DNA of 64,000 nt from Flectonema sp. DT1601. Taxonomy: Eukaryota. The notes under the pieces are model-generated. The model saw nothing but the letters and a program-made list of their open reading frames with translations, searched no databases and had not been told where the DNA came from. Position 1 is the stretch's first letter; each line of letters opens with the position of its first letter. Shown piece after piece: positions 9,941-43,425 of the stretch. The stretch lies in NCBI GenBank assembly GCA_964019425.1, contig OZ025795.1:1302001-1366000 (forward strand), written 5' to 3'. The position numbers were made by a program, and so were the translations under genes.

Positions 9941-10466
9941 TCGAATCCTATCTTAAAATAAAACGACGGTTTTAGATGCAAATCAGATAGCCTGATTTTC
10001 ATTAAATCAATAGTTATGAACAAGTCAACGAGTCTCTATTTCAGACTTGCACTGAATTCATGATGCAGTACCTCTCTCTTCGTTTGCTTGTCCTTTATTC
10101 TTACCCAAAAAAGAAAAGTTATCAGCAAGGGTTGTGTTTTTTATTCTCGTTCTCTGTGTCTGTAAGTTGAAACCGAAATATAATTATTTAGTGAACAATA
10201 AGCTGTTTGTTGATAGTAATTAAATTCGTACTGCAGGTTATCATAAATTATGTTTGGTAAAAAGCGATTGTTGCAGACAACTATCGTGGAACACGATTGC
10301 AAGATATGTATTGTCTTTTCCAAAACCTTCAAAAAGAAGAAATCCCATTGCAAGGTTCTTCATTTCTTGGGGATCTTAAAATAGATCATTGTACAGTAGT
10401 ATTGTTATCTCTTTGTGAGAATCTAATAACACCTTCTTCTCCTTCAGGAAACTACTCAAAACAACA

Positions 10467-12072
10467 ATGCAGGTTTTTGTGACGTGTCCGGATTTGGGAT
10501 TCCCCGCAGTGTCAGTCGCGACTGGTGTTGATTCCCTTGTGAGCGAAGTGTTGACGGCGGCAGCTGGGGAGTGGGATGTGGATCCGGAGGAAGTTGAACT
10601 GTCGTTCGCTGGTGACACGCTTTGCGAAAGTGAGCGACTAGCAGATCGTGGAGTGGTTGGAGAGAGCGAGTTGGAGATGTGGAAGAAGCGGTTTCGTATA
10701 TTTAGTAAATGCTGGTTTGTTGATGATTCAAAACGGGAGAAGCTGCTTCGTTGGCTAAGTGAACACAATGAGGAATACTTATGCCTTGACACCACAACAT
10801 TCACAGAGGATGGTTGCCTCAGTATTAAGGGTGATTTGCTTCCTTCTGATGCCGAACGGATTTCTTTCCGCAATTCAAATCCCGACATCTCAGCCATCTC
10901 ACAAGTTGTCACCATTGGAGATTTTTTCTTGTGTCACTGTTCACAAATCACTTCTGTTGATTTTTCAGGTCTTAGTAGTGTCACCACTATTGGAAATGCT
11001 TTCTTGTGTCACTGTTCACAAATCACTTCTCTTGATTTTTCAGGTCTTAGTAGTGTCACCACTATTGAAGGTTTTTTCTTGTATTCCTGCTCACAAATCA
11101 CTTCTCTTGATCTTTCAGGTCTTAGTAGTGTCACCACTATTGGAAATAGTTTCTTGTCTCATTGTTCACAAATCACTTCTCTTGACCTTTTACGTCTTAG
11201 TAGTGTCACCACTATTGGAGATTATTTCTTGTCTTCCTGCTCACAAATCACTTCTCTTGATCTTTCAGGTCTTAGTAGTGTCACCACTATTGGAAATAGT
11301 TTCTTGTCTCATTGTTCACAAATCACTTCTCTTGACCTTTTACGTCTTAGTAGTGTCACCACTATTGGAGATTATTTCTTGTCTTCCTGCTCACAAATCA
11401 CTTCTCTTGATCTTTCAGGTCTTAGTAGTGTCACCACTATTGGAAATAGTTTCTTGTCTCATTGTTCACAAATCACTTCTCTTGACCTTTTACGTCTTAG
11501 TAGTGTCACCACTATTGGAGATTATTTCTTGTCTTCCTGCTCACAAATCACTTCTCTTGATCTTTCAAGTCTTGGTAGTGTCACCACTATTGGACATAGT
11601 TTCTTATATCACTGTTCACAAATCACTTCTGTTGACCTCTCAGATCTTAGTAGTGTCACCACTATTGGAGATTATTTCTTGTCTTCCTGCTCGCAAATCA
11701 CTTCTCTTGATCTTTCAGGTTCTAAGTAGTGTCACCACTATTGGATTTCGTTTCTTATATCACTGTTCACAAATCACTTCTCTTGATCTTTCAGATCTTA
11801 GTAGTGTCACCACTATTGGACATAGTTTCTTGTCTCATTGTTCGCAAATCACTTCTGTTGACCTCTCAGGTCTAAGTAGCGTCACCACTATAGGAGATTA
11901 TTTCTTGTCTAAATGTACACAAATCACTTCTCTTGTTCTTTCTGGTCTTAGTAGTGTGATTAAAATAGGCGATAGGTTCCTTGCTAATAGCAATGCACTT
12001 GAATCTGTTCAGCTGCCTGTAAATAATGGCGCTCTCTTTGAGAAGTCAGTGGAAGCAGCGATTAATCATTAA
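10467..12072 (+). pseudogene. UBL-LRR gene copy 1: ubiquitin-like domain + 14 BspA/TpLRR-type 23-aa repeats + C-cap; one +1 frameshift near 11720
   Basis: MQVFV...LSFAGDTL...LADRGV ubiquitin-fold pattern; repeat ITSLDLSGLSSVTTIGxxFLxxCSQ. GGTTCTA at 11718-11724 versus GGTCTA/GGTCTT in other units (true mutation or assembly error). Confidence 0.8.
10898..11960 (+). repeat. 69-bp coding tandem array with a 138-bp higher-order unit repeated three times
   Basis: Units alternate AAT AGT..TCT CAT and GAT TAT..TCT TCC from about 11130 to 11560. Confidence 0.95.
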
Positions 12073-12884
12073 GTTTTGTTTTGTTAATTTTTTATTTAGC
12101 TTTCTTTCAATTTACGAGTTTTCTTATTATTTTTCATTCTTTCTAAAGTGTGTTGTATTTTTGTTTTGTTTGTGCTCTCGCTGCTGTGAAAGCTTCAATC
12201 CAATTTATTCTATGAACCTCTTCACGGAGTAGAATTAATTTAAATATAAAATTTCTGTTCAAATATTGTTCGAATTGTAGTTCCAGGTGTTGCTTTGTAA
12301 TGAACTTATTGAGTACTGGCTTTGTGGGAATCTAATAACACCTTCTTGTCCTTCAGCGAATTACTGAAAACAACAATGCAAAATTTTTTGTTTTAATGAT
12401 GACGTTTTCCATTCGTCCTGATGATTTTGCAATGAGATAATTCTTTTTTTAGTAAAAGCAGGACTTCCTTTTTTGAGTTACAAAAAATAATTTATCGTTT
12501 TGGTTTCTCGGGGCTCACTACTTTCATTTATTTTATTTTATTTATTCATTTGTTTTGTTTTCTTTTCTCTATAGTTATCCTCATATCATTTTCTGACAAC
12601 AATCGGACAAGGTGGAAAGCTGACAATAGGCATACTGTGTTCATTATGCCCCGTCAGCCGAAGCTATAATAAAACAATCCTAATAAGATTGCAGACAACT
12701 ATCGTGGAACACGATTGCAAGATATGTATTGTCTTTTCCAAAACCTTCAAAAAGAAGAAATCCCATTGCAAGGTTCTTCATTTCTTGGGGATCTTAAAAT
12801 AGATCATTGTACAGTAGTATTGTTATCTCTTTGTGAGAATCTAATAACACCTTCTTCTCCTTCAGGAAACTACTCAAAACAGCA

Positions 12885-13594
12885 ATGCAAGTTTTTGTGA
12901 CGTGTCCGGATTTGGGATTCCCCGCAGTGTCAGTCACGACTGGTGTTGATTCCCTTGTGAGCGAAGTGTTGACGGCGGCAGCTGGGGAGTGGGATGTGGA
13001 TCCGGAGGAAGTTGAACTGTCGTTCGCTGGTGACACGCTTTGCGAAAGTGAGCGACTAGCAGATCGTGGAGTGGTTGGAGAGAGCGAGTTGGAGATGTGG
13101 AAGAAGCGGTTTCGTATATTTAGTAAATGCTGGTTTGTTGATGATTCAAAACGGGAGAAGCTGCTTCGTTGGCTAAGTGAACACAATGAGGAATACTTAT
13201 GCCTTGACACCACAACATTCACAGAGGATGGTTGCCTCAGTATTAAGGATGATTTGCTTCCTTCTGATGCCGAATGGATTTCTTTCCGCAATTCAAATCC
13301 CGACATCTCAGCCATCTCACAAGCTGTCACTATTGGAAATCGTTTCTTGTATCTTTGTTCACAAATCACTTCTCTTGATCTTTCACGTCTTAGTAGTGTC
13401 ACCACTATCGGAGATGTTTTCTTGTGTGGCTGTTCACAAATCACTTCTCTTGATCTTTCAGGTCTTAGTAGTGTCGCCACTAGGAGATTATTTCTTGTCT
13501 GAGTGTACACAAATCACTTCTCTTATTCTTTCAGGTCTTAGTAGTGTCACCACTATTGGAGATGTTTTCTTGTGTGACTGTTCACAGATCGCTT
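12885..13594 (+). pseudogene. UBL-LRR gene copy 2: 2-nt deletion near 13481, interrupted by a retrotransposon in repeat 4
   Basis: Near-identical to copy 1 at a 2418-bp offset, including ~200 bp of upstream DNA. LRR sequence stops at ...TGTTCACAGATCGCTT (13594). Confidence 0.85.
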
Positions 13595-13662
13595 GGGATC
13601 ACGACACCTGCCTCCTCGCGGCGGTCCCGGACGACTTCGATAGGGGTCGACAAAACAGTGTC
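13595..13662 (+). ncRNA. HDV-like self-cleaving ribozyme at the element 5' end
   Basis: P1 GGGAUC/GGUCCC; P2 GACAC/GUGUC; P3 GCC/GGC; L3 UCCUCGC; P1.1 CC/GG; P4 CGACUUC/GGGGUCG; candidate catalytic C at 13651 followed by AAAA. Confidence 0.8.
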
Positions 13663-16620
13663 AAACACAAGAGATGCCAACAACATCAAAACCATCAAAA
13701 CCAGCTACAACATCCAGAGCATACAAACCCTGGATGCTTCTTGTCAAATAAAGAACGGAATAAACTAGCCCATGCCTTGAATGGCAATGGTGGACCAGGA
13801 AAGGACAGCAGAGACCGACGCCCGCGAGACGATACTCGCGACAGGGACGAAAACCGTCCAAACAAGGAGGAACGCCGCATAGCGAAGCTCGAGAAAGAGA
13901 AACTCGACTCGCTAGACGAGATAGAGGAAGAGAAGCAACGACTGGGGCAGCAGAGAATGGCCATGGAACAGCACCACCACCAGAAGGAAACCAACCTTCA
14001 AGGACAAGAAAAACAGTTGGAACAGCAACGCCAACACCAACAACAAGAACTGCAAAGTCAGTACCACCAACAACAGCAGCAACTGCAGAGCCATCATCAG
14101 CTGAAGGAAGCGGAAAACCTCCAGAAGGAGCAAAACCTACAGGCTCAACTCAAGGAGCGACACCAGCACCAACAGAAGGAATTGCAGAAGCAATACCGCC
14201 AACAACAACAGCAACTGGAAAGCCAACAGCAGAAGAAGGACGCCGAGTCTGAACAGCAAACACATCTGACTCGGTCACAACTACAGAAGGAGAAGGAATC
14301 CTTCCAGACAGAGAAGGAACGGCTCCACCTCCAGCTGGATCAGCAGTTGAAGAACGAGAAGGAGCACCTCCACCAACAACTCCAACAGAAGGAAGACGAG
14401 GTTCGTAAAGAAAAGTTAGCAGAGAGAATAGAACTCCAACAACTGCGAGATGAACTAACTCAACAAGAACAGAACATCCAACGACGTGAGGAAGAGGTGA
14501 ACCGAGGACAGCACCAACTACACCAACAACAACAACAACTAGAGCAGCAGCAACAGCAATCGCAACATCAGCAACTGGAACTACAACAACAACGGCAACA
14601 ACAGCAACAGCAACAACAGCATCAACAACTGGAACTACAACAACAACAACAACAGCACCAACAACAGCATCAACAACTGGAACTGGAACAACAACAACTA
14701 CAACAGCAACAGCAACTGCAACAACATCGACAACCGCAACAACAACCGCAACAGCAACCCGTACACTACATGCAACATCAACCGTATGCAACGTACGACA
14801 CCTACGCCCAGCAGCAGCAGTCTTCCCACTACGAAGGGCTACAACAGGAACTGAAGCGCGAAAGAGAGGAGAAGAGCGAACTACGCGAGATGCTCCGAAC
14901 TCTCCAACAACAACTGGACGGATTGAGAGAAGAACTCAAGGCCCAACATGCTGAGGCGAAGAGGCAGCAGGAAACGGCGGGACGAGAAGCGAGAGAGATG
15001 CAAGAACGTTTCTTGCTAGAACTGGAAGCGGAACGGGTCCAGATCAGAGGGCTCAACTCGCTGAGAGAAGAGGAAGAGGAACATCAGATGGACACCACCC
15101 CTGATCAGGAAGCAAATACGGAAGTGAAGCAAACGCCACCGGTGAAGCTGCCCCAAGACGGCATGAGGGAGCTGGACGCCTCACGCAAGAAGCTGATGAA
15201 AGAAATCAATGAAGGGCAGGTAGCCGGACGATCGGCCATCCAAGAGCAGATGGTCCGAGAGGCCGGGAGACTGGCGCAGACTCAGAAGAGCTGGGAGAAC
15301 GCAGCACGCAAGGAGCGATCCAGAGTGGATAACCTCTCGCTGGCACCGGAATACTGGCCAGAGGGAATGGCGATCACGAAGGAGCAGTACGACGCCGGTA
15401 CAAAGGGAGTACACCTCACCACCAGAGAGGAGGCAAGGAAGAGGATGTCGGGAACACCTCCGGGAGCCTGGGAAACGTTATCCCTGGTAACCCTGGAACC
15501 ACCATCAAGCACGGCCCAAAAAGTACAAGTGGTACTGAAGGAGACGACGAGCGACGGCGAGAAGAGAATTCTCAAGCAGCTCTGGATGACAACACTGGGA
15601 AGAGTGGTTGTACCATCCGGAACAGACGTCGTGCGGACGGAAAGCACGAGGGAGATGGTTGTCCGGGTGGACAAAAAATGATCCGGAGAGAAGAGATTGT
15701 CGGAAGTGAAGCGCTCCCCGTTCAGAGCAACGGAGGAATTGAAGAAGATGCCGGGGTACGTCGATACGTACAACCCGCGGATCGGAGACCAGAGCGTCAC
15801 GGTGATGCTCAGGGTGAAGGTAGCCGAAGTGAAGAACTTCCTCCGAGAATCGGGGAAGGACGGCGTCTTCACCAAGGAAAAGGATCCGAGAGAGGAACGA
15901 GCAGTGAAGGCGGCGGTCATTTGGCTACCGAAGGACGAGACGCTCGGAATCGCTCGGGACAAGGCTGTAGAAGTCGATGGGGGGCTGGGACTCGTGGTAA
16001 ACGAACACGGACTCGGGCTTCGAGTGACCAGCTGGCAGGAAACGGCGGCGAGGGAGAAACTGCACCTGCCGGCTAAGCTACCGGAAACAAAGATCACGGG
16101 TATCCCGATCGGCACAACCACCGACGAAGCGATCAAGTGGCTGATCACGAAGGAAGGCTGGGAAGTGAGGAAGACGAAGGAAGGCGTACGGAACGGCATG
16201 CGATGGATGGTCGTCCGCGGTCCGGTGAGAACGCAGGAAACCATCACGGTGGATGGCGTCCTGTGCATGGTGGAGGCTGGGAAACAGAAGGAGGAAGTCG
16301 ACCCGAAACGGAAGGAGACCAAACGCCCGAATGCGACACCGACGAAACCAGAGAAAAGGCGTGACCCGACGGAGGGAACGGGAGGAAAGTGGTACACTCG
16401 ATTGGAGTTCATCGAGTTTCATGGGAAGAAGAAGGGACAACGCCTATGGTTAGAAGCCAGCAACCCAACACCAACTACGACGGCACCTACGAAGGCAGCG
16501 ACCGCAACGACGACAACGGAAAAGGAACCCAAGTCGACAAAAAAGAAGGAGAACAGCTCAGTGGACGAGAGATTGGACCGACTGGAACGTCTACTGATGG
16601 CGTTCATGGAACGGAATTGA
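13597..16620 (+). CDS. retrotransposon ORF1 (Gln-rich coiled coil + unknown domains); internal in-frame TGA at 15679-15681; start codon uncertain
   Basis: ORFs 13177..15681 and 15697..16620 share one frame. Poly-Q/E heptads at 13950-15080; C-terminal coiled coil VDERLDRLERLL. Confidence 0.75.
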
Positions 16621-19600
16621 CCGGCGGAGGACGGAAGGAACTGGGCGGAGACACGGAGACGTCTCCTGCTACAAGCTGGCGACGTTGAGAGGAACCCCGG
16701 ACCGAGACCACGAATCGATGGGCTCACCGTGGGAACAATCAATGTCACCACACTAGAAGGAAAAATAGATGCCATCACAGATCTGAACCTAGATCTGATA
16801 GCTCTACAGGAAACTTCTCTGACGGGCCCACAGCAACGCCAGATGAAAAAACAGCTCGGTGAGAGAGGATGGGAAGCGACGTTCGGGTTAGAGTGCAAAT
16901 TACTAACCGATGGGCAAAAGACGTGGACGGCGGCGGGAGGCGTGGCCATCTTGACGCGCACTGGTACACCGGTGAGAAGGATAAAACACGATCGGCTCGA
17001 CAACACAGGACGATTCGTACACGCGGGAGTGTCGTACGGAAATGGCAAGGTACTGCACGTTTTCTCGTTCTACGGAGACGTACGTTCGGCGGTCTACACG
17101 GAAGAGTTGATTGCGGAGATGCTCGTGGAAGCAGCAGCTCTGGGTGATGTTCCCGTATTGATAGCGGGGGACTTCAACGTCGAAACAACGGAATCGCCGG
17201 CGCTTCTGTCGGCTTTCGCACACGGACTCTGGATAGATGCCGCCGTCTCGATGGGAAACATGACACCGACAAGCGAAGCGGGAAAAGGACTTCGTAGAAT
17301 CGATGCTATTCTGATGAACCGCGGGGCGGCGACAGCAATCTCGAATGACACAACGATCCATGTGCATAAGAGTGAGCTGATCCCGACACACAAGCCGGTC
17401 ATCATTAGAAAGCTCAACATCTCACGTTACAACGAGAAGGCTCCTAGGCTGATAGTACCGAAACAGTTGGATACCTCCGAGACAACGGCCCCGAGTGAGG
17501 GGAAGGCCGAAAGGCAACTCCACTGGACGCGAGCTGTAGCGACGGAAGATCCTGACAAGATGCTGGAGGCGCTTGGAGAGATCATCGAAAGATACCTTCT
17601 GACGGGAAATCTGGAGATAAGTAACCCAGCCAAGTACAAGGGACGCGGGAAGAAGCGTGAGCCTGTGATGTGGACGAACGCGGCGAAACAAGACGGGAGA
17701 GGAGCGACGTGCAGGGAAACGCGAAGAAGACTGCAGAAGATACGTGTTCTGGAGGAAGTGATGAAAATCACAAAGCAACGCGATGGTCCGACGGTGCCGT
17801 CCCACGAAGTAATGAAACTCTGGAAAAAATTACGAAAACTCGATCCGACGACGGGATCCGAAATACCACAGACGGAGGAGCTTCGGATACTACTACAACA
17901 AGCGAGACAGGAGCAAGCGATAGAAAGCAAGAAGCTCCGAACTGAACGCATCCGCATGTGGAAACGGAATGTTGTCGACAATTGGAATGACGACCGCACG
18001 AAAGTTTTCCAGTGGATCAGGAACGTCGAGCAATCGAAGACTGTTCTGATGGAAAAGGCAGATGGAAGCTGGACGGCCAACTGCTCCGAGATGGATGAGG
18101 CCATGCACGCGGCATGGGACCCCATACTCAAAAAGTACTTATCAGACCCGGAACCAGACTGGATGAAGTTCGAAGAACGGTACAGCATCCTAACTACATC
18201 GAGGAACACCCGATGCGATGCGAAGATATCACCGGGGAGGACGTTGCAAAAGCCCTCAGAAGGACTAGCTCGCGCAAAGCAGCTGGGGTAGACGGCTTCA
18301 GGATATCGGAGCTCAAGTCGCTACCGGAGGACATGATTCAGATGATAGCGGAATTCTACAACATAGTGGAGAGAACACACTGGCCGGAAGCACTTCTCAC
18401 GGCACTGGTGTCGGCCATACCCAAAGGGGCAGGGACGAAACTACTGGAGCAGAGACCCATTACGGTGACATCCGCACTTTACAGACTATGGGGCTGTATA
18501 CGTATGGAAAAGGATGTAATGGAGTGGCAAGAGAAGTGGGCTCACGACGGGCAGTACGGCTACCGGAAGGGGAGATCTACGCTCGACCTCAGCTGGAAGA
18601 TAGCACTAGACGTGGAACACGCAACTCTCTACGGAGAAGAGATTGCTGGAGTGACCACGGACTTCAGGAAGTGTTTCGACCTGATCCCGCACGACATCCT
18701 CCTGAAATTGGTGAAGGAATTGGGCCTCGGTGATAAGATCCTGAGAACTGTGACGGATGTCTACCGGCGACTCAGAAGGAGATTCAAGTTCCCGAGCGGC
18801 GTCGGAGAAGAATTTGCCACCACCAACGGAATACTGCAAGGATGTCCGCTCAGCGTGGTGCTCTTCAATGCGCTGAGCTCGATACTCAGCAAAGCAATCG
18901 AGAGGGAAGCCGATGTGACGCCCGGATCGTATGCGGACGACCTGACGTTGTTTGGATCACGAACGAAGCTACAAGAAGGCGTAGAAGTCGTTGCGGAGTT
19001 CTGCACCCTGACCGGACAAGAACTCGCACCTCAGAAGTGCAAGTGGTTCTCGAACAGAGACCAGGGCCAGACCAACATCACAATGGGGGACACAACACTG
19101 GACTTCGATGACAGTGTCGATATCGTGGGATGCCACCTCAGTATGAAAGGAACCACCAAGCAGATGGGGAGGATCACGGAAGAAGTGCTCGATAGAGCGA
19201 GGCGAATCCGGTTACTTCCGCTCAGATATCAAGCGAAGGAACAGATAGCTGCAGCTAGTGTCATGCCCAAGGCGCTCTTCGGAACGGCACTGTACGATCC
19301 CGATGCGACGCGACTCGGACTGCTGAGAAGAGCAATGGCAACGGGGATTTTCCGGAAACTTGGAGGGAAAAGAACTAAGATGTCGCACACCATGGGCCTA
19401 ACGCTACTCTGCAAGGGACATTGTGTGGATCCCGCGACGTACATTAGGTACAATAGACTCCTTGCACTCACCAGAATGCTACCGAAGCTAACTGAGAGGA
19501 TACGCAGGGTATGGGAACACCTGCAAGAGCACACTGAAGCGACGAGAGGACCAGTCGGCCTCGCCCTGAGTACTCTGAAGGAACTTGGATGGGAATGGTC

Positions 19601-19919
19601 AACTTTCTCGGTCTTCGAAGGTCCGGGAGGGACGACCGAACACGGAAGGCTGGATGCGGGGCGCTGGCGGCACGATGTCAGAGAGGCGTGCAGGCGTTTC
19701 ACCTGGAACAAAACAATTGCGGAAACGAGACGGGTAAACCTGAGAGGTATTGAAGCGGGCATCGACCGGAAAGAGACCCTGAAGGTCCTGAAGGAAGGAA
19801 AGGGCGACCCCTACCTGCGCGGAGTAGTGAAGCACTGCCTCCTGGACAACGTGTACACTGGCTCGATGAAGGCGGGAAACAAGAACTGCGCGCACTGCGA
19901 GGAGGTTGACGACGTAGAG
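16621..19919 (+). CDS. retrotransposon ORF2: 2A-like peptide, AP endonuclease, reverse transcriptase, partial zinc knuckle; one frameshift near 18190
   Basis: Frame is open from 16621: PAEDGRNWAETRRRLLLQAGDVERNPGP, then APE. RT continues in the 18114..19940 frame. Confidence 0.88.
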
Positions 19920-19939
19920 AGTACATCTGTTGACTTGTG

Positions 19940-22539: not shown

Positions 22540-23620
22540 CATTTCTCTTTTATTTTCTTTAGTTGTTTTCAAGCTGTTAGCCTCTGGGCAAGGTGGAAGC
22601 TGGGGGTTGATCACTACCAGCCGAACCTATAAAACTACAATCTTCGCGATTGGGTCCCTGCTGATGCGGGCTACCCAACGTGTTTATTGTCCTACGAATT
22701 TTTGCATTTAATTGAATTTATTCGGATCGATCCAGTGTGGTTCGATCCGAGTCGATTCAAAAAAAAAAAAAAAAAAAAAGGGCTGCTGCCAAATCTATCT
22801 TCAATATTTAATGCTCTACGAGTGGTTTTAGTATATTATCAGTGAATTTATTTATATCCTATTTTAATTTTTTATTTATTTATTTATTTATTAGTTCGAA
22901 GTAGTTTAATAAGCAAGGCGAAGTGGAATGTTAGATTTCAGTAATCTTTCTGTCGAAGCTATTTCAACTATCCATGCTGAGTCTTCGGATATGGCTACGG
23001 ATTGGGTCCTCTGTTGCTGTGAGTTGCTCTCTTAGTAGAGTACTCATAGTATAGAGCAACGTTGGATTATATAAGTAGCTAATTAATTAATTTATTCAAA
23101 CGAGTAGTATAAGATTAAGGGTCCTGAAAACTACGTATTCCACAAGTGTTTTATGGAACAGCAGAACAATGTGTTATTTTTTTTATATAATATTATTTTT
23201 TGATTTAGTGCACCTTTTTAATAATGAACTCATATTCTAAGCTCGAAACCAACCATTATTAGTTTGTTGTCCTGCCAATTTTTGAATTTGGTTTTTTTGT
23301 TTGACAAGTAACTATTAATACTAACCAACTTAGCACTTCTAAAGTTGTGTTTTTATAAATCTTCTTTTTCTTATAGTAATTTAGCGCACTGTTTTTATAA
23401 TAAACTCATATTCTAACTAATTTAGCTCTCGATGAGTAGGACAGGCCTGACATCGCAGTGTCCCCGTTGCTTTCTTCGCTGAAGAGGGCTGGGAAAGGCG
23501 AATGGTCTGAAGAACGATTTCTTTAATTTTATTCCAAAATCCAAACGTTATTTATTTGTTGTCCTACGAATTTTTGCATTTGATTTTCTTAGTTGACTGA
23601 TAACCATTAATACTAACTTA
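22540..23620 (+). repeat. mosaic dispersed repeat family with structured modules; related blocks at ~12600-12690, 32640-33240, 33760-35750, 39130-39420, 41250-41620
   Basis: Shared strings GGGCAAGGTGGAA, GGATTGGGTCCTCTGTTGCTGTGAGTTGC, GTATAAGATTAAG..CCTGAAAACTAC, TTGTCCTACGA. Confidence 0.8.
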
Positions 23621-31314: not shown

Positions 31315-34300
31315 TTAACAAGTATTGTAAGAACGAGAAAGGAATGTAGGGTAGCACACGTAAACCTCCTTTAGCTTTATCAGTTCAAGTCGGTTCACGG
31401 TTACGTGCACAAAGAATGTCGAAACTGGACATCACAATTCTTTTGTCGTTCGCTATGTTTTTTTTTTTTTTTTTTTTTTTTTTCTTGCCTTCAGAACTGT
31501 TGTGTCAGAAACAATCTCCTTTCGTCTTCTCGCTTGTGCGAGTCTCGGGGTGATTGTCCAACCTTTGGAACACAAGTTATTTCTTTTTTTTCTTTTTTCT
31601 TTTTGAATTTTTTTTCTTCAAAAAGAAAAAGTATTTGCCTAACAAAAGATTGCAAAGTCGATGGCGTTTTATAATATTTTCGCATTCAGCTACTCAGACG
31701 GTCACAAGAAAATATTTTTGACTGACGTGTGTTTTTGTGGGATTTCTCCATTGATATTAGATTGTCTTTCTGAATGAGCTGCGGTCTCACAGTAATTTCT
31801 TAGATTGCTGACAGAGACCAGCATCCTTGTTGATCAGCTTCTCCCAATTCTTTTGAAAAAAAAAAAAAAAAAGAAATAAAATAAAAGGTCAACAGTATGC
31901 ATAATCCAGCTAATTTTGAAGGGTCAATTGGGGGGGAACCTCAACGAATTTTCGTTTTTTTTTTTTTTTTTTTTTTATTGTTGTTTTTTTTCATGCTTCC
32001 ACATACCTAATTATAATTTTACAGATTTTTTTGATAACAATTTGTCTCATCCTCTTCTACATCAAAAAAAAAAAAAAAGAAACTACCCTTCACTTTAATT
32101 TTATTGTTCTCTTTTTTTTTTCTTCCCTAAAAAAGTGAATTCTTCATGTCATCACCATGCATCTCTCGACTATATGTGAGAGTCAAAAAAAAAAAAAATT
32201 AAAAAAAAGAAAAATTGATTTTTCCTGTTGAAATAAAAGTAGTGATCGATGAGCAAAACAAAACTGTTTTTTTTTCTTCTTTTTTTTTTTAAAAAAAGAA
32301 ATTCTTATTCTTAAAGCAAGCAAAGAAACTTTTGATGTTTAAGTAAGCAATATTTTTGATTCTGTTCCTCACAGAATTCCTTACAGATTGGTATATTTAT
32401 TCGTAGTATCGCATTGTTGCAGTTCTTCTTTTTAAAGCCCTTTGCAATATTAATTGTTTCGGGTCTTTTAATTCTTTTAAGTGGTATAGAGGGGGAGGGA
32501 GGTTACTAGGAATATGAAGAAAGGTTTTATTATATAAATGGATTTGAAAAAGATGCTTTTTGTATTTACTCCTTATCTCCATTCCCGCCCCTGATTAATC
32601 CTTTCGTATCGTATTATATCCCTCTCTGGTTTTTTTTTTTTTTTCAACCTGTTAGTCTGGGCAAGGTGGACAACTGGAATTGAACCTTTCAGCCGAAGCT
32701 ATAAAAATGCAATTTTCGTGGCTGAGCCATCTCCTGGTGTGGGTTACCCAGACTACCCGGACTTGCAATTATAATAAACTCGTTTATTTATTTGTGATTA
32801 CCCCTCTATTACTATCCAAGTATGAGATTAAAGCCTTTTGAAAACTACATATTTCACAGCGTTAAATGGAACAGCAGAAACAATGTTGTTTGTTTTTAAT
32901 ATATTTCTTTCTTTCATTTTTGATTCAATGTTGTTACTTTATAACAAAACTCGTATTCTAGCATACTTCTCTGACGTCATGGTCGGTGATCAAAAAAAGG
33001 AACGTGTTTGGTTAATATAAACCTTTTTTTTTTTTTTTTGTAGTCTCTTCTCTAGGGAATTCTAAATTTCTCTTTTATTTTCTTTAGTTGTTTACAACCT
33101 GTTAGCCTCTGGGCAAGGTGGAAACTGGAAGTCGATCACTTCCAGTCGATATCATAAAGTACAATCTTCGCGATTGGGCCCTTACTGATGTGGGCTACCC
33201 AGACTGATGACCCTTCGTAGTCATCAGTTTGTATTTGCTGACTAATTAAATAAAATCTTTTCCAACAACGGGATTCCGACTGAGTATTGATTTACTATCT
33301 GATTCACAACATTAATCTTTGTGTAACTTCATGATTATTTTGATGCTCTGAAGTCGCGTGAGCGATACGTAACAAAAAGCTTTAAAGAAATTGAACTGCA
33401 AGGTCTCTCCTTCTTTTTTTGTTTTTGTTTTTTGTTTTTGTATTCTTCATTTTGTCTTTCATGAATTTCCGACGGCATATAACTGGCCACTTTGAACGGA
33501 AAGCTTTGTATCTTTCTTGTTTTAATGTTCAAATTAAATCTATCACCTTTTTTCTTCTCTTGTTTTATCGCAGAACTCATCGGCCGTGCTACCAACTATT
33601 CAGATTAAGAGCCTTCTATTTATTGATCGCAGCTGTGATCAACTTAATATGAGGCTTACCTGAATGGTTTTTTTTTTTAACGAAAAAATCCAGAGACAAA
33701 ACCAGTCACTACCAGCTCCCTGCAGTCATTAATCTTTTCCCCTTGCTCTTTTCTTTCTAAAGGTACCTTTTCTTTGATTAACAACTACAAATATTTTTGT
33801 CAGTCAAGTACTTGATATTAATTTTGTTTTTAATACCTAAAGTTGTTACTGTTTTTTAATTGTCAAAGTTTCACCCCCTTGTTCTTTTCTTTCTTTCCAA
33901 CAATGTGTTGTAGTAAATGTTGCAGTCCCCACATGCACTCGCAAGTTCGTTTTTTGCGTCCTTGAGAGTGGCGAGCAGTCGGCTCTTAACAATAGTGCGT
34001 GAACGGGAGCGAGGTTAGAGCTACGCATGTATTTTTTATATAGTGACTCGCTCGTTGGTATTATTATTTTTTTGTTAGCAACTTGTTATTATTATTAGTA
34101 AATAAACCCGTTAGGGAATTCAACTATCCACACCGTCTTCGGAAACGGTTACGGATTGGGTCCTCTGTTGCTGTGAGTTGCTCTCCTAGAGCACTCATAA
34201 TATAGAGCAACGTTGGGTTATATAACTAAAATTATCTGCCAAAAACTTCATATGCTTAACCTTTGTTGCTTTTATCTTGTATGTGCTGGTACCCTGCTAA

Positions 34301-42343: not shown

Positions 42344-43425
42344 ATGCAGGTTTTTGTGACGTGTCCGGATTTGGGATTCCCCGCAGTGTCAGTCACGACT
42401 GGTGTTGATTCCCTTGTGAGCGAAGTGTTGACGGCGGCGGCTGGGGAGTGGGATGTGGATCCGGAAGAAGTTGAACTGTCGTTCGCTGGTGACACGCTTT
42501 GCGAAAGTGAGCGACTAGCAGATCGTGGAGTGGTTGGAGAGAGCGAGTTGGAGATGTGGAAGAAGCGGTTTCGTATATTCAGTAAATGCTGGTTTGTTGA
42601 TGATTCAAAACGGGAGAAGCTGCTTCGCTGGCTAAGAGAACACAATGAGGAATACTTATGCCTTGACACCACAACATTCACAGAGGATGGTTGCCTCAGT
42701 ATTAAGGGTGATTTGCTTCCTTCTGATGCCGAACGGATTTCTTTCCGCAATTCAAATCCCGACATCTCAGCCATCTCACAAATTGTCACTATTGGAAATT
42801 GTTTCTTGTATCTTTGTTCACAAATCACTTCTCTTGATCTTTCAGGTCTAAGTAGTGTCACCACCATTGGAGATTATTTCTTGTCTATCTGTTCACAAAT
42901 CACTTAGTGCCTCGTCATCTCACCGTGCTAGCAAGCCTGAATGACAGCACTCAAAATGGTACATATATCTGTTCACAAATCACTTCTCTTGACCTCTCAC
43001 GTCTTAGTAGTGTCACCACCATTGGACATCGTTTCTTATATCACTGTTCACAAATCACTTCTCTTGATCTTTCAGGTCTTAGTAGTGTCACCACTATTGG
43101 AGATGATTTCTTGTCTCATTGTTCACAAATCACTTCTCTTGACCTTTCAGATCTTAGTAGTGTCACCACCATTGGAGATTATTTCTTGTCTATCTGTTCA
43201 CAAATCACTTCTCTTGACCTCTCAGATCTTAGTAGTGTCACCACTATTGGAGATTATTTCTTGTCTTCCTGTTCACAAATCACTTCTCTTGATCTTTCAA
43301 GTCTTAATAGTGTGATTAATTTTGGAGATAACTTCCTTGTTGATTGCAATGCACTTGAATCTGTTCAGCTGCCTGTAAATAATGGCGCTCTCTTTGAGGA
43401 GTCAGTGGAAGCAGCTATTAATTAA
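42344..43425 (+). pseudogene. UBL-LRR gene copy 3 (6 repeats + C-cap), disrupted by a 60-bp insert plus 20-bp duplication
   Basis: Same UBL and linker as copies 1 and 2. Removing 80 bp restores a single ORF. Confidence 0.85.
42906..42965. mobile_element. 60-bp hairpin-forming insertion with a 20-bp target-site duplication
   Basis: TATCTGTTCACAAATCACTT at 42886-42905 and 42966-42985; internal stems AGTGC/GCACT and GTCAT/ATGAC. Confidence 0.85.

What the first reader, a model, noticed from the sequence alone, without database searches (positions are those of the whole stretch)
13595..13662. HDV-like ribozyme whose predicted cut site is the host-element junction
Seen: a complete nested double pseudoknot with L3 UCCUCGC (as in the HDV antigenomic ribozyme), GG for P1.1, a 7-bp P4 and C-AAAA in J4/2. 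P1 is 6 bp (7 if host U13594 pairs with G13629). Established: R2 and L1Tc/ingi elements use such ribozymes to release their 5' ends from co-transcripts. Inference: the element is 5'-complete and cuts itself out of the LRR gene's transcript, so it needs no promoter.
Basis: partly seen in the sequence, partly recalled or inferred. Interest (0 to 1): 0.8.

Follow-up and report, generated by a model that had tools for sequence, protein, structure and literature searches.

The report
Ribozyme-headed LINE targeting host genes in-frame
The flagged 68 bases are a predicted self-cutting RNA that forms the exact front end of a jumping gene which, in every copy whose front could be seen, sits at the same spot of a host repeat-protein gene and in that gene's reading frame, so it likely borrows the host gene's transcript and start codon and then likely frees both its RNA and its proteins by built-in cutting signals.

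Summary
The HDV-like fold is real. It is the only descriptor hit in the window (chance 0.046 per window), starts exactly where LRR-gene homology stops (13594|13595), and a divergent relative implies compensatory P2 changes. It heads an APE+RT LINE of a probable diplonemid. This copy is dead (nonsense, frameshift, 3' end lost), but intact sisters exist.

The larger result: the family is target-specific for one register of the host's 75-bp LRR coding repeat. The window copy, a copy in run X1, 3 of 3 junction-spanning sister proteins and a 60-nt insert with a 20-bp duplication all share that register. ORF1 stays in frame with the host gene through the ribozyme, with no own AUG for 121 codons. Divergent relatives are fused the same way to an LRR gene and to a cathepsin gene. 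A conserved NKLAHALNGN motif, like a totivirus polyprotein cleavage signal, lies before the first AUG; a 2A motif heads ORF2.

Best reading: uncut host-element RNA is the mRNA, cut RNA the template. Cleavage, translation and 'no promoter' are untested.

The parts
12885..13594 (+). 5' part of host BspA-type LRR gene (target); frame breaks before the junction in this copy (ORF stops at 13502)
   Evidence: Pfam LRR_5; 95% identical to paralogue 10271-11178; ORF 12885-13502
13585..13594 (+). Host side of target site; the ten bases before and two after this register are invariant in 22 of 22 uninterrupted repeat units; this copy differs at 13587 and 13591
13595..13662 (+). HDV-like ribozyme, first bases of the LINE, also read as codons in the host/ORF1 frame; predicted cut 13594|13595; predicted catalytic C13651
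   Evidence: identical in the X1 copy
13594..16620 (+). ORF1 frame, continuous with the host LRR frame; first in-frame AUG at 13957; copy-specific TGA at 15679-81; shared stop at 16618-20
13759..13788 (+). NKLAHALNGN motif, upstream of the first in-frame AUG; matches 6 of 7 specified residues of the totivirus-like cleavage motif NKxMHxxNGN
16663..16704 (+). Class A 2A-like peptide (..GDVERNPGP), in frame behind the ORF1 stop and directly before the APE domain
   Evidence: signature motif as quoted in PMC3708506
16705..19921 (+). ORF2 (APE 16768-17337, RT 18447-19067), no AUG before the APE domain, frameshift at 18187, cut off at residue 1064 of 1542
42906..42965 (+). 60-nt insert at the same register of another LRR gene; possibly the element's 3' end (inferred, not shown)
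42886..42985 (+). 20-bp target-site duplication around that insert (42886-42905 = 42966-42985)

Best explanation
The motif is a predicted HDV-like self-cleaving ribozyme that forms the first 68 bases of an APE/RT LINE family which inserts, sense and in frame, at one fixed register of a multicopy host LRR coding repeat, and which likely uses the host gene's transcript in two ways. Shown from sequence: the fold, the junction, the fixed register, the open frame from host through ribozyme into ORF1, the lack of an early AUG, the NGN and 2A motifs. Inferred step 1: polycistronic host transcription runs into the element. Inferred step 2: a fraction of the RNA self-cleaves at 13594|13595 and gives an uncapped RNA with an exact 5' end, the template for target-primed reverse transcription, which would regenerate the same junction in a new LRR unit (staggered cuts about 20 bp apart, from one duplication). 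Inferred step 3: the uncut fraction matures as the capped LRR mRNA and is translated from the host AUG through the ribozyme codons; the NKLAHALNGN motif would cut the host part off ORF1p. Inferred step 4: readthrough of, or reinitiation after, the UGA at 16618 followed by 2A skipping would release ORF2p. The copy in this window is a dead member. My odds by step: ribozyme active in the family 0.85; LRR site specificity 0.9; host-AUG route used 0.55; NGN cleavage 0.6.
For: Register: window junction. One X1 contig across the junction with an identical ribozyme and about 99% identical element but 10 differences in 49 flank bases, i.e. another LRR unit. 3 of 3 ORF1 proteins that reach the junction (of 8 cluster members) are LRR fusions at the same residue, in genes whose host parts are 52-72% identical while element parts are 91-99%. 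60-nt insert with 20-bp duplication at the same register. P0067, a divergent family (41% over the ORF1 query), is fused at the same LRR residue. Ribozyme constraint: P0067 forces A13604-U13661 to U-A and allows U13609-A13655 to C-G, both sides changed. Peptides at the junctions of P0067 and P0069 and near the start of P0131 admit the same fold in the same phase; 13 of 75,733 peptide windows pass, 6 of them these sites. Frame: 121 codons without stop or AUG, 211 of 20,000 shuffles; indels among copies in this stretch are in frame (6 nt in X1, 3 residues in three proteins). The NGN motif is invariant at K,N,A,H,N,G,N,G in 5 of 5 divergent ORF1s and lies before the first Met in 6 of 7 sequences checked. 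PMC7968656 (passages) reports cleavage after NKxMHxxNGN in OmRV and IMNV. PMC3185411 (passages) reports that a -1 base able to extend P1 lowers cleavage, which host U13594 could do.
Against: No cleavage, transcript or protein was observed. Protein databases show a junction only when the insertion is in frame, so the in-frame counts are biased; only the window, X1 and the 60-nt insert are DNA-level. 5 of 8 ORF1 cluster members and most of the 22 ORF2 cluster members (15 listed, 10 contig lengths) have unknown flanks, so off-target copies are not excluded. P0066 (60%) begins inside the ribozyme in another frame with no host part, and P0131 has only 6 residues before it. The cathepsin fusion is one sequence. 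The looser three-phase back-translation test is permissive (32 hits in 79,953 control offsets). The motif has Ala for Met and Gly after NGN, where OmRV has Pro or Ile. Efficient co-transcriptional cleavage would destroy the fusion mRNA. HDV-like ribozymes of R2 and L1Tc are reported to support cap-independent initiation, which would make the host AUG unnecessary. In this copy the host frame is broken before the junction, and G13654 implied in three sisters departs from the usual A at that J4/2 position (recalled).
Confidence: 0.55

Rival explanations
1. R2/L1Tc-type use only: the ribozyme cuts efficiently, then acts as an IRES-like start for AUG-less ORF1; the in-frame fusion to the host gene is a by-product of a fixed target and a 1-in-3 phase match.
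For: IRES-like initiation is reported for R2 and L1Tc ribozymes (PMC6765202 passages; PMC3185411 passages). P0066 has the ribozyme in another frame. In-frame fusions are over-represented in protein databases.
Against: The same phase is kept through the ribozyme in 4 divergent families (window family, P0067, P0069, P0131) with 49-67 codons to the motif, and with two unrelated host genes; a processing-type motif sits where a variable N-terminal part would need removing.
Confidence: 0.3
2. Pr77-type dual element: the 5' end is also an internal promoter, transcription starts near +1, and the ribozyme mainly trims the end and insulates against read-through.
For: Shown for L1Tc in a related host group.
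Against: Sense insertion into a transcribed gene array makes a promoter unnecessary; does not explain the missing AUG or the frame. Not testable here.
Confidence: 0.1
3. One old insertion was spread among LRR genes by duplication and repeat recombination; there is no site specificity, and the ribozyme may be decayed.
For: LRR arrays recombine easily; the window holds a 95% duplicated LRR gene; P2 is imperfect and Rfam scores the motif below threshold.
Against: Host parts are far more diverged (52-72%) than element parts (91-99%) up to the junction; X1 differs 10 bases from the junction; a separate short insert with its own 20-bp duplication and a divergent family (P0067) use the same register.
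Confidence: 0.05

Closest known systems
L1Tc/ingi (INGI clade) of trypanosomes, with L1TcRz/Pr77 and the RHS gene hot spot
   Same: Euglenozoan-type polycistronic host; HDV-like ribozyme as first bases; 2A before APE; insertion hot spot inside a protein-coding multigene family (PMC4035085 abstract and part 1; PMC5814959, PMC7563717 passages).
   Different: Here two ORFs with a large ORF1, no RNase H by Pfam in the full 1542-aa ORF2; RHS insertions are described as giving nonsense or frameshift pseudogenes, here ORF1 is in frame; L1Tc is dispersed and has its own promoter. Bringaud 2002 was not held and may describe RHS-ingi chimeras.
R2 elements (28S rDNA)
   Same: Site-specific insertion in a multicopy transcribed gene, release by a 5' HDV-like ribozyme, cut at the junction as in Drosophila R2 (PMC3774820 part 1 and passages).
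   Different: R2 has one ORF with a restriction-like endonuclease and a non-coding target; here APE, two ORFs, and a protein-coding target read in frame.
Target-specific APE LINEs (Tx1 and R1 clades)
   Same: APE endonuclease with sequence-specific insertion in repeats (PMC4640811 passages).
   Different: [quoted passage not shown]
Tetrahymena REP element in LRR genes
   Same: Non-LTR element strongly associated with an LRR multigene family, co-transcribed with LRR repeats (PMC6564038 passages).
   Different: REP sits in introns and is removed from the somatic genome; no ribozyme or fusion seen in the passages read.
NKxMHxxNGN cleavage motif of OmRV and IMNV
   Same: 6 of 7 specified residues; occurs together with 2A motifs in one coding region (PMC7968656 passages).
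   Different: Ala for Met, Gly after the site; in a LINE ORF1; cleavage untested here.

Membership tests
HDV-like ribozymes | Nested double pseudoknot P1, P1.1, P2, P3, P4 | tested here: met
   P2 has a bulge and one mismatch in this copy
HDV-like ribozymes | P1 of 6 or 7 bp with the cut before its first base | tested here: met
   6 bp; PMC4908430 passages give 6- or 7-bp P1
HDV-like ribozymes | Conserved L3 and catalytic C in J4/2 | tested here: met
   L3 aligns to the RF00094 consensus; C13651 allowed in all peptides tested; HDV numbering recalled
HDV-like ribozymes | Covariation of helices | tested here: inconclusive
HDV-like ribozymes | Rfam RF00094 gathering score | tested here: not met
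   20.6 bits against 50
HDV-like ribozymes | Mg-dependent self-cleavage giving a 5'-OH end | not testable with these tools
   needs an assay
L1Tc/ingi (INGI) clade | APE and RT domains | tested here: met
L1Tc/ingi (INGI) clade | RNase H domain after RT | tested here: not met
   Pfam at E<=1 finds none in full-length P0052 or its C-terminal part P0057
L1Tc/ingi (INGI) clade | Single ORF, no ORF1 | tested here: not met
   about 1000-codon ORF1 with a shared stop; criterion
L1Tc/ingi (INGI) clade | Pr77 hallmark and poly(A) tail | not tested
   no Pr77 sequence fetched; 3' end missing in this copy
Target-specific non-LTR elements | Independent copies at one position of a multicopy target | tested here: met
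Target-specific non-LTR elements | Uniform 3' junction and duplication on full-length copies | not testable with these tools
   no genome held; only the 60-nt insert shows a duplication
Tx1 or R1 clade | RT phylogeny | not tested
   no named reference set was fetched; best named hits are D. papillatum proteins at 36-41%
Class A 2A peptides | GD(V/I)ExNPGP with upstream leucines, at the N-terminus of ORF2 | tested here: met
   also in relative L006; activity untested
NKxMHxxNGN cleavage motif | Seven specified residues | tested here: inconclusive
   6 of 7; distant relative P0137 has the Met

The most novel reading that the evidence does not exclude
A lineage of LINEs lives as in-frame parasites of multicopy protein-coding genes (LRR, cathepsin): one RNA is either cut by a ribozyme that doubles as coding sequence, to serve as template, or left whole and translated from the host's cap and AUG, after which a virus-type NGN signal and a 2A signal free ORF1p and ORF2p. 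Cleavage rate would set the template-to-mRNA ratio, and each insertion would also shed a truncated host protein.
Probability: 0.45. Interest if true: 0.9.

Novelty: new variant of a known kind. Interest (0 to 1): 0.8.

Why it matters
How ribozyme-released, uncapped LINE RNAs are translated is an open question, usually answered by an IRES-like role. This family offers a testable alternative: the uncut RNA is the mRNA. It also extends sequence-specific LINE targeting from RNA genes and simple repeats to a protein-coding repeat at codon precision, puts a viral polyprotein-cleavage motif in a cellular mobile element, and gives a mechanism for truncating and reshuffling LRR gene families in an abundant marine protist group. 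An APE LINE with a defined coding-sequence target and about 20-bp stagger is also of interest for gene-insertion tools. Searches that found no such description in the held library; two key papers (Bringaud 2002, Ruminski 2011) were not held.

Tried and rejected
No genome held for the window, so copies could not be counted at DNA level. Rfam gathering scan: 0 hits. Metagenome scan with the 22-nt core: 4 loci, none with the P1 arm, P4 or element sequence, taken as chance. Viral contigs with the ORF2 alignment: 37 stretches, 0 relatives. Genome contigs: 6 loci with ORF2 relatives, none showing a ribozyme-type L3 or the 60-nt insert among the 5 scanned for L3 and 6 compared by BLAST. No RNA holder listed among sequencing runs; X2 and X3 do not cover the ribozyme. 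The X2 'joint' with 134 letters equals one repeat plus 59 bases, i.e. plain LRR repeat, rejected. Linking the 60-nt insert to the element's 3' end failed: no protein hit, no match in ORF2, exact look-ups empty, hairpin z -0.77. A designed attenuator helix between LRR flank and 13650-13685 is not supported: 23 of 172 control stretches pair as well. PDB search of the APE part: 0 hits. Atlas search of the ORF2 C-terminus: best score 0.77, lead only. Earlier scan notes: nothing for this genome or sequence; the 8 notes shown for 'HDV ribozyme retrotransposon' concern Vingi elements and were not used. No structure or complex prediction was run.

Full report
Observation. My descriptor, built from generic HDV features (recalled), finds one site in the window, 13595 with C13651; shuffled windows give 35 hits in 766 and local shuffles 0 in 158,492. 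Rfam ranks RF00094 first but far below threshold (20.6 bits, E 1.1). P1 has 6 bp, within the 6-7 bp stated in PMC4908430 (passages). A 7th pair with host U13594 would compete with P1.1; PMC3185411 (passages) reports that such -1 extension lowers cleavage in L1Tc and R2. P2 is imperfect here.

The element. 13595 to 19921 is a G+C-rich island with ORF1, then APE and RT. Best named ORF2 hits are Diplonema papillatum proteins at 36-41%, and 17 of 17 other ORFs of 200+ codons are on one strand, so the host is probably a diplonemid with polycistronic transcription and trans-splicing (inferred; PMC10161547 passages). Run X1 holds a copy about 99% identical that reads TGG at 15679-81, lacks 5 bases at 18187 and continues past 19921. 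The ORF2 cluster has 22 members, 15 listed, 4 of them full length at 1542 aa; the window copy stops at residue 1064. No LRR sequence follows 19921, so this copy lost its 3' end and the rest of the host gene. It is dead; the family is not. X1 may be the assembly's source sample and is used only as evidence of a second copy.

Target specificity. Alignments to LRR paralogues stop at 13594. Of 24 repeat units in the window, 22 are uninterrupted and invariant from -10 to +2 around this register. The second interrupted unit, at 42905, carries a 60-nt insert with an exact 20-bp duplication. The single X1 contig across the junction has the same ribozyme but 10 differences in 49 flank bases. Of 8 ORF1 cluster members, 3 reach the junction and all 3 are LRR fusions at the same residue, after 0, 3 or more, and 8 counted repeat motifs, in genes 52-72% identical to each other and to the window's genes, against 91-99% for the element part. 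The other 5 do not reach the junction. A search of 1.84 billion representatives gave 74 hits; of 28 scanned with Pfam, P0067 carries an LRR part fused at the same residue and P0069 the N-terminal half of a papain-family protease ending at the conserved GGL. Whether the 60-nt insert is the element's 3' end is not shown; full ORF2 ends in Thr-stop in 8 of 15 listed members and the insert junction also reads Thr-stop, which would fit joining at a microhomology, a post hoc observation.

The ribozyme is also coding. The host frame runs through the ribozyme into ORF1 for 121 codons without stop or AUG (211 of 20,000 shuffles; the other two frames have 5 and 3 stops). The first 20 ribozyme codons give the same residues in 4 of 4 family copies except the host-dependent first one, while the next 30 codons vary with in-frame indels. 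Back-translation of P0067 forces A-U to U-A at 13604/13661 and allows U-A to C-G at 13609/13655; sisters force G13657, pairing C13608. P0069 and P0131 admit the same fold in the same phase; 13 of 75,733 windows pass that test, while a looser test is permissive, so the weight comes from the hits lying at independently defined junctions. P0066 starts inside the ribozyme in another frame and is an exception.

Release motifs. NKLAHALNGNG (13759-13791) is conserved in 5 of 5 divergent ORF1s and precedes the first Met in 6 of 7 sequences, so translation must begin upstream of it without an element AUG. It resembles NKxMHxxNGN, after which OmRV and IMNV polyproteins are cut (PMC7968656 passages). ORF2 follows the ORF1 stop in frame, has GDVERNPGP and no AUG before the APE domain; 2A at this place is known in APE LINEs (PMC3708506 passages) and recurs in relative L006.

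Mechanism. I commit to a two-use model: host transcription supplies the RNA; the cut fraction is the template with an exact 5' end; the uncut, capped fraction is translated from the host AUG, and NGN and 2A signals free the two proteins. All four steps are inferred. The main rival is full cleavage with IRES-like initiation as reported for R2 and L1Tc (PMC6765202 passages); an internal promoter as in Pr77 (PMC5814959, PMC1874656 passages) cannot be excluded.

Comparison. It works like R2 and like ingi/L1Tc in RHS genes, but is not an INGI member: it has an ORF1 and no RNase H hit (criteria). RHS insertions are described as making pseudogenes (PMC7563717 passages). Known targets of specific LINEs are RNA genes, transposons and simple repeats (PMC4640811 passages). 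Tetrahymena REP favours LRR introns (PMC6564038 passages). Of PMC4035085 and PMC3774820 I read part 1 of 7 and passages; of PMC12278014 and PMC12338488 passages. Bringaud 2002 and Ruminski 2011 were not held and could contain precedents; no supplements were read.

Verdict. The ribozyme alone is a new member of a known kind. The in-frame, site-specific targeting of coding repeats is well supported and makes this a new variant; the borrowed-start mechanism is plausible and untested. Interest 0.8.

Noticed in passing
P0069 residues 1-176: A related LINE ORF1 is fused in frame to a cathepsin-L-like gene (signal, I29, mature part to GGL); a second possible coding target.
   Followed up: partly
ORF2 of intact copies, P0052 about residues 1390-1495: Three Cys/His-rich repeats at the ORF2 C-terminus, similar repeats in D. 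papillatum P0004; no Pfam hit; candidate target- or RNA-binding module.
   Followed up: partly
window 13587 and 13591: Two A-to-G changes unique to this copy's flank (22 of 22 other units have A); G13587 lets host RNA pair with the P1 5' arm in a predicted hairpin.
   Followed up: partly
window 16618-16623: ORF1 stop is UGA followed by C, in frame with ORF2; leaky-stop context is recalled, not tested.
   Followed up: no
L006 453-848 and 685-2247: A distant relative shows two 2A-like motifs in different frames before its APE domain.
   Followed up: no
window 10759-12072: The +1 frame of the LRR repeats is open for 437 codons; the LRR gene 10467-12072 has a frameshift near 11720 that may be an assembly error.
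   Followed up: no
window 10271-11178 and 12689-13594: Tandem duplication of the LRR gene's 5' region at 95% identity; third family member at 42344-43425.
   Followed up: partly
window 21.7-41.4 kb: Several short dispersed repeats of 40-170 bases between genes, for example 22541-22677 with 32622-32750 and 33066-33201; not examined.
   Followed up: no
P0131, P0088, P0137 N-termini: Very distant ORF1 relatives (28%) keep NGN-type motifs near the N-terminus, so the motif may be widespread in this LINE lineage.
   Followed up: partly
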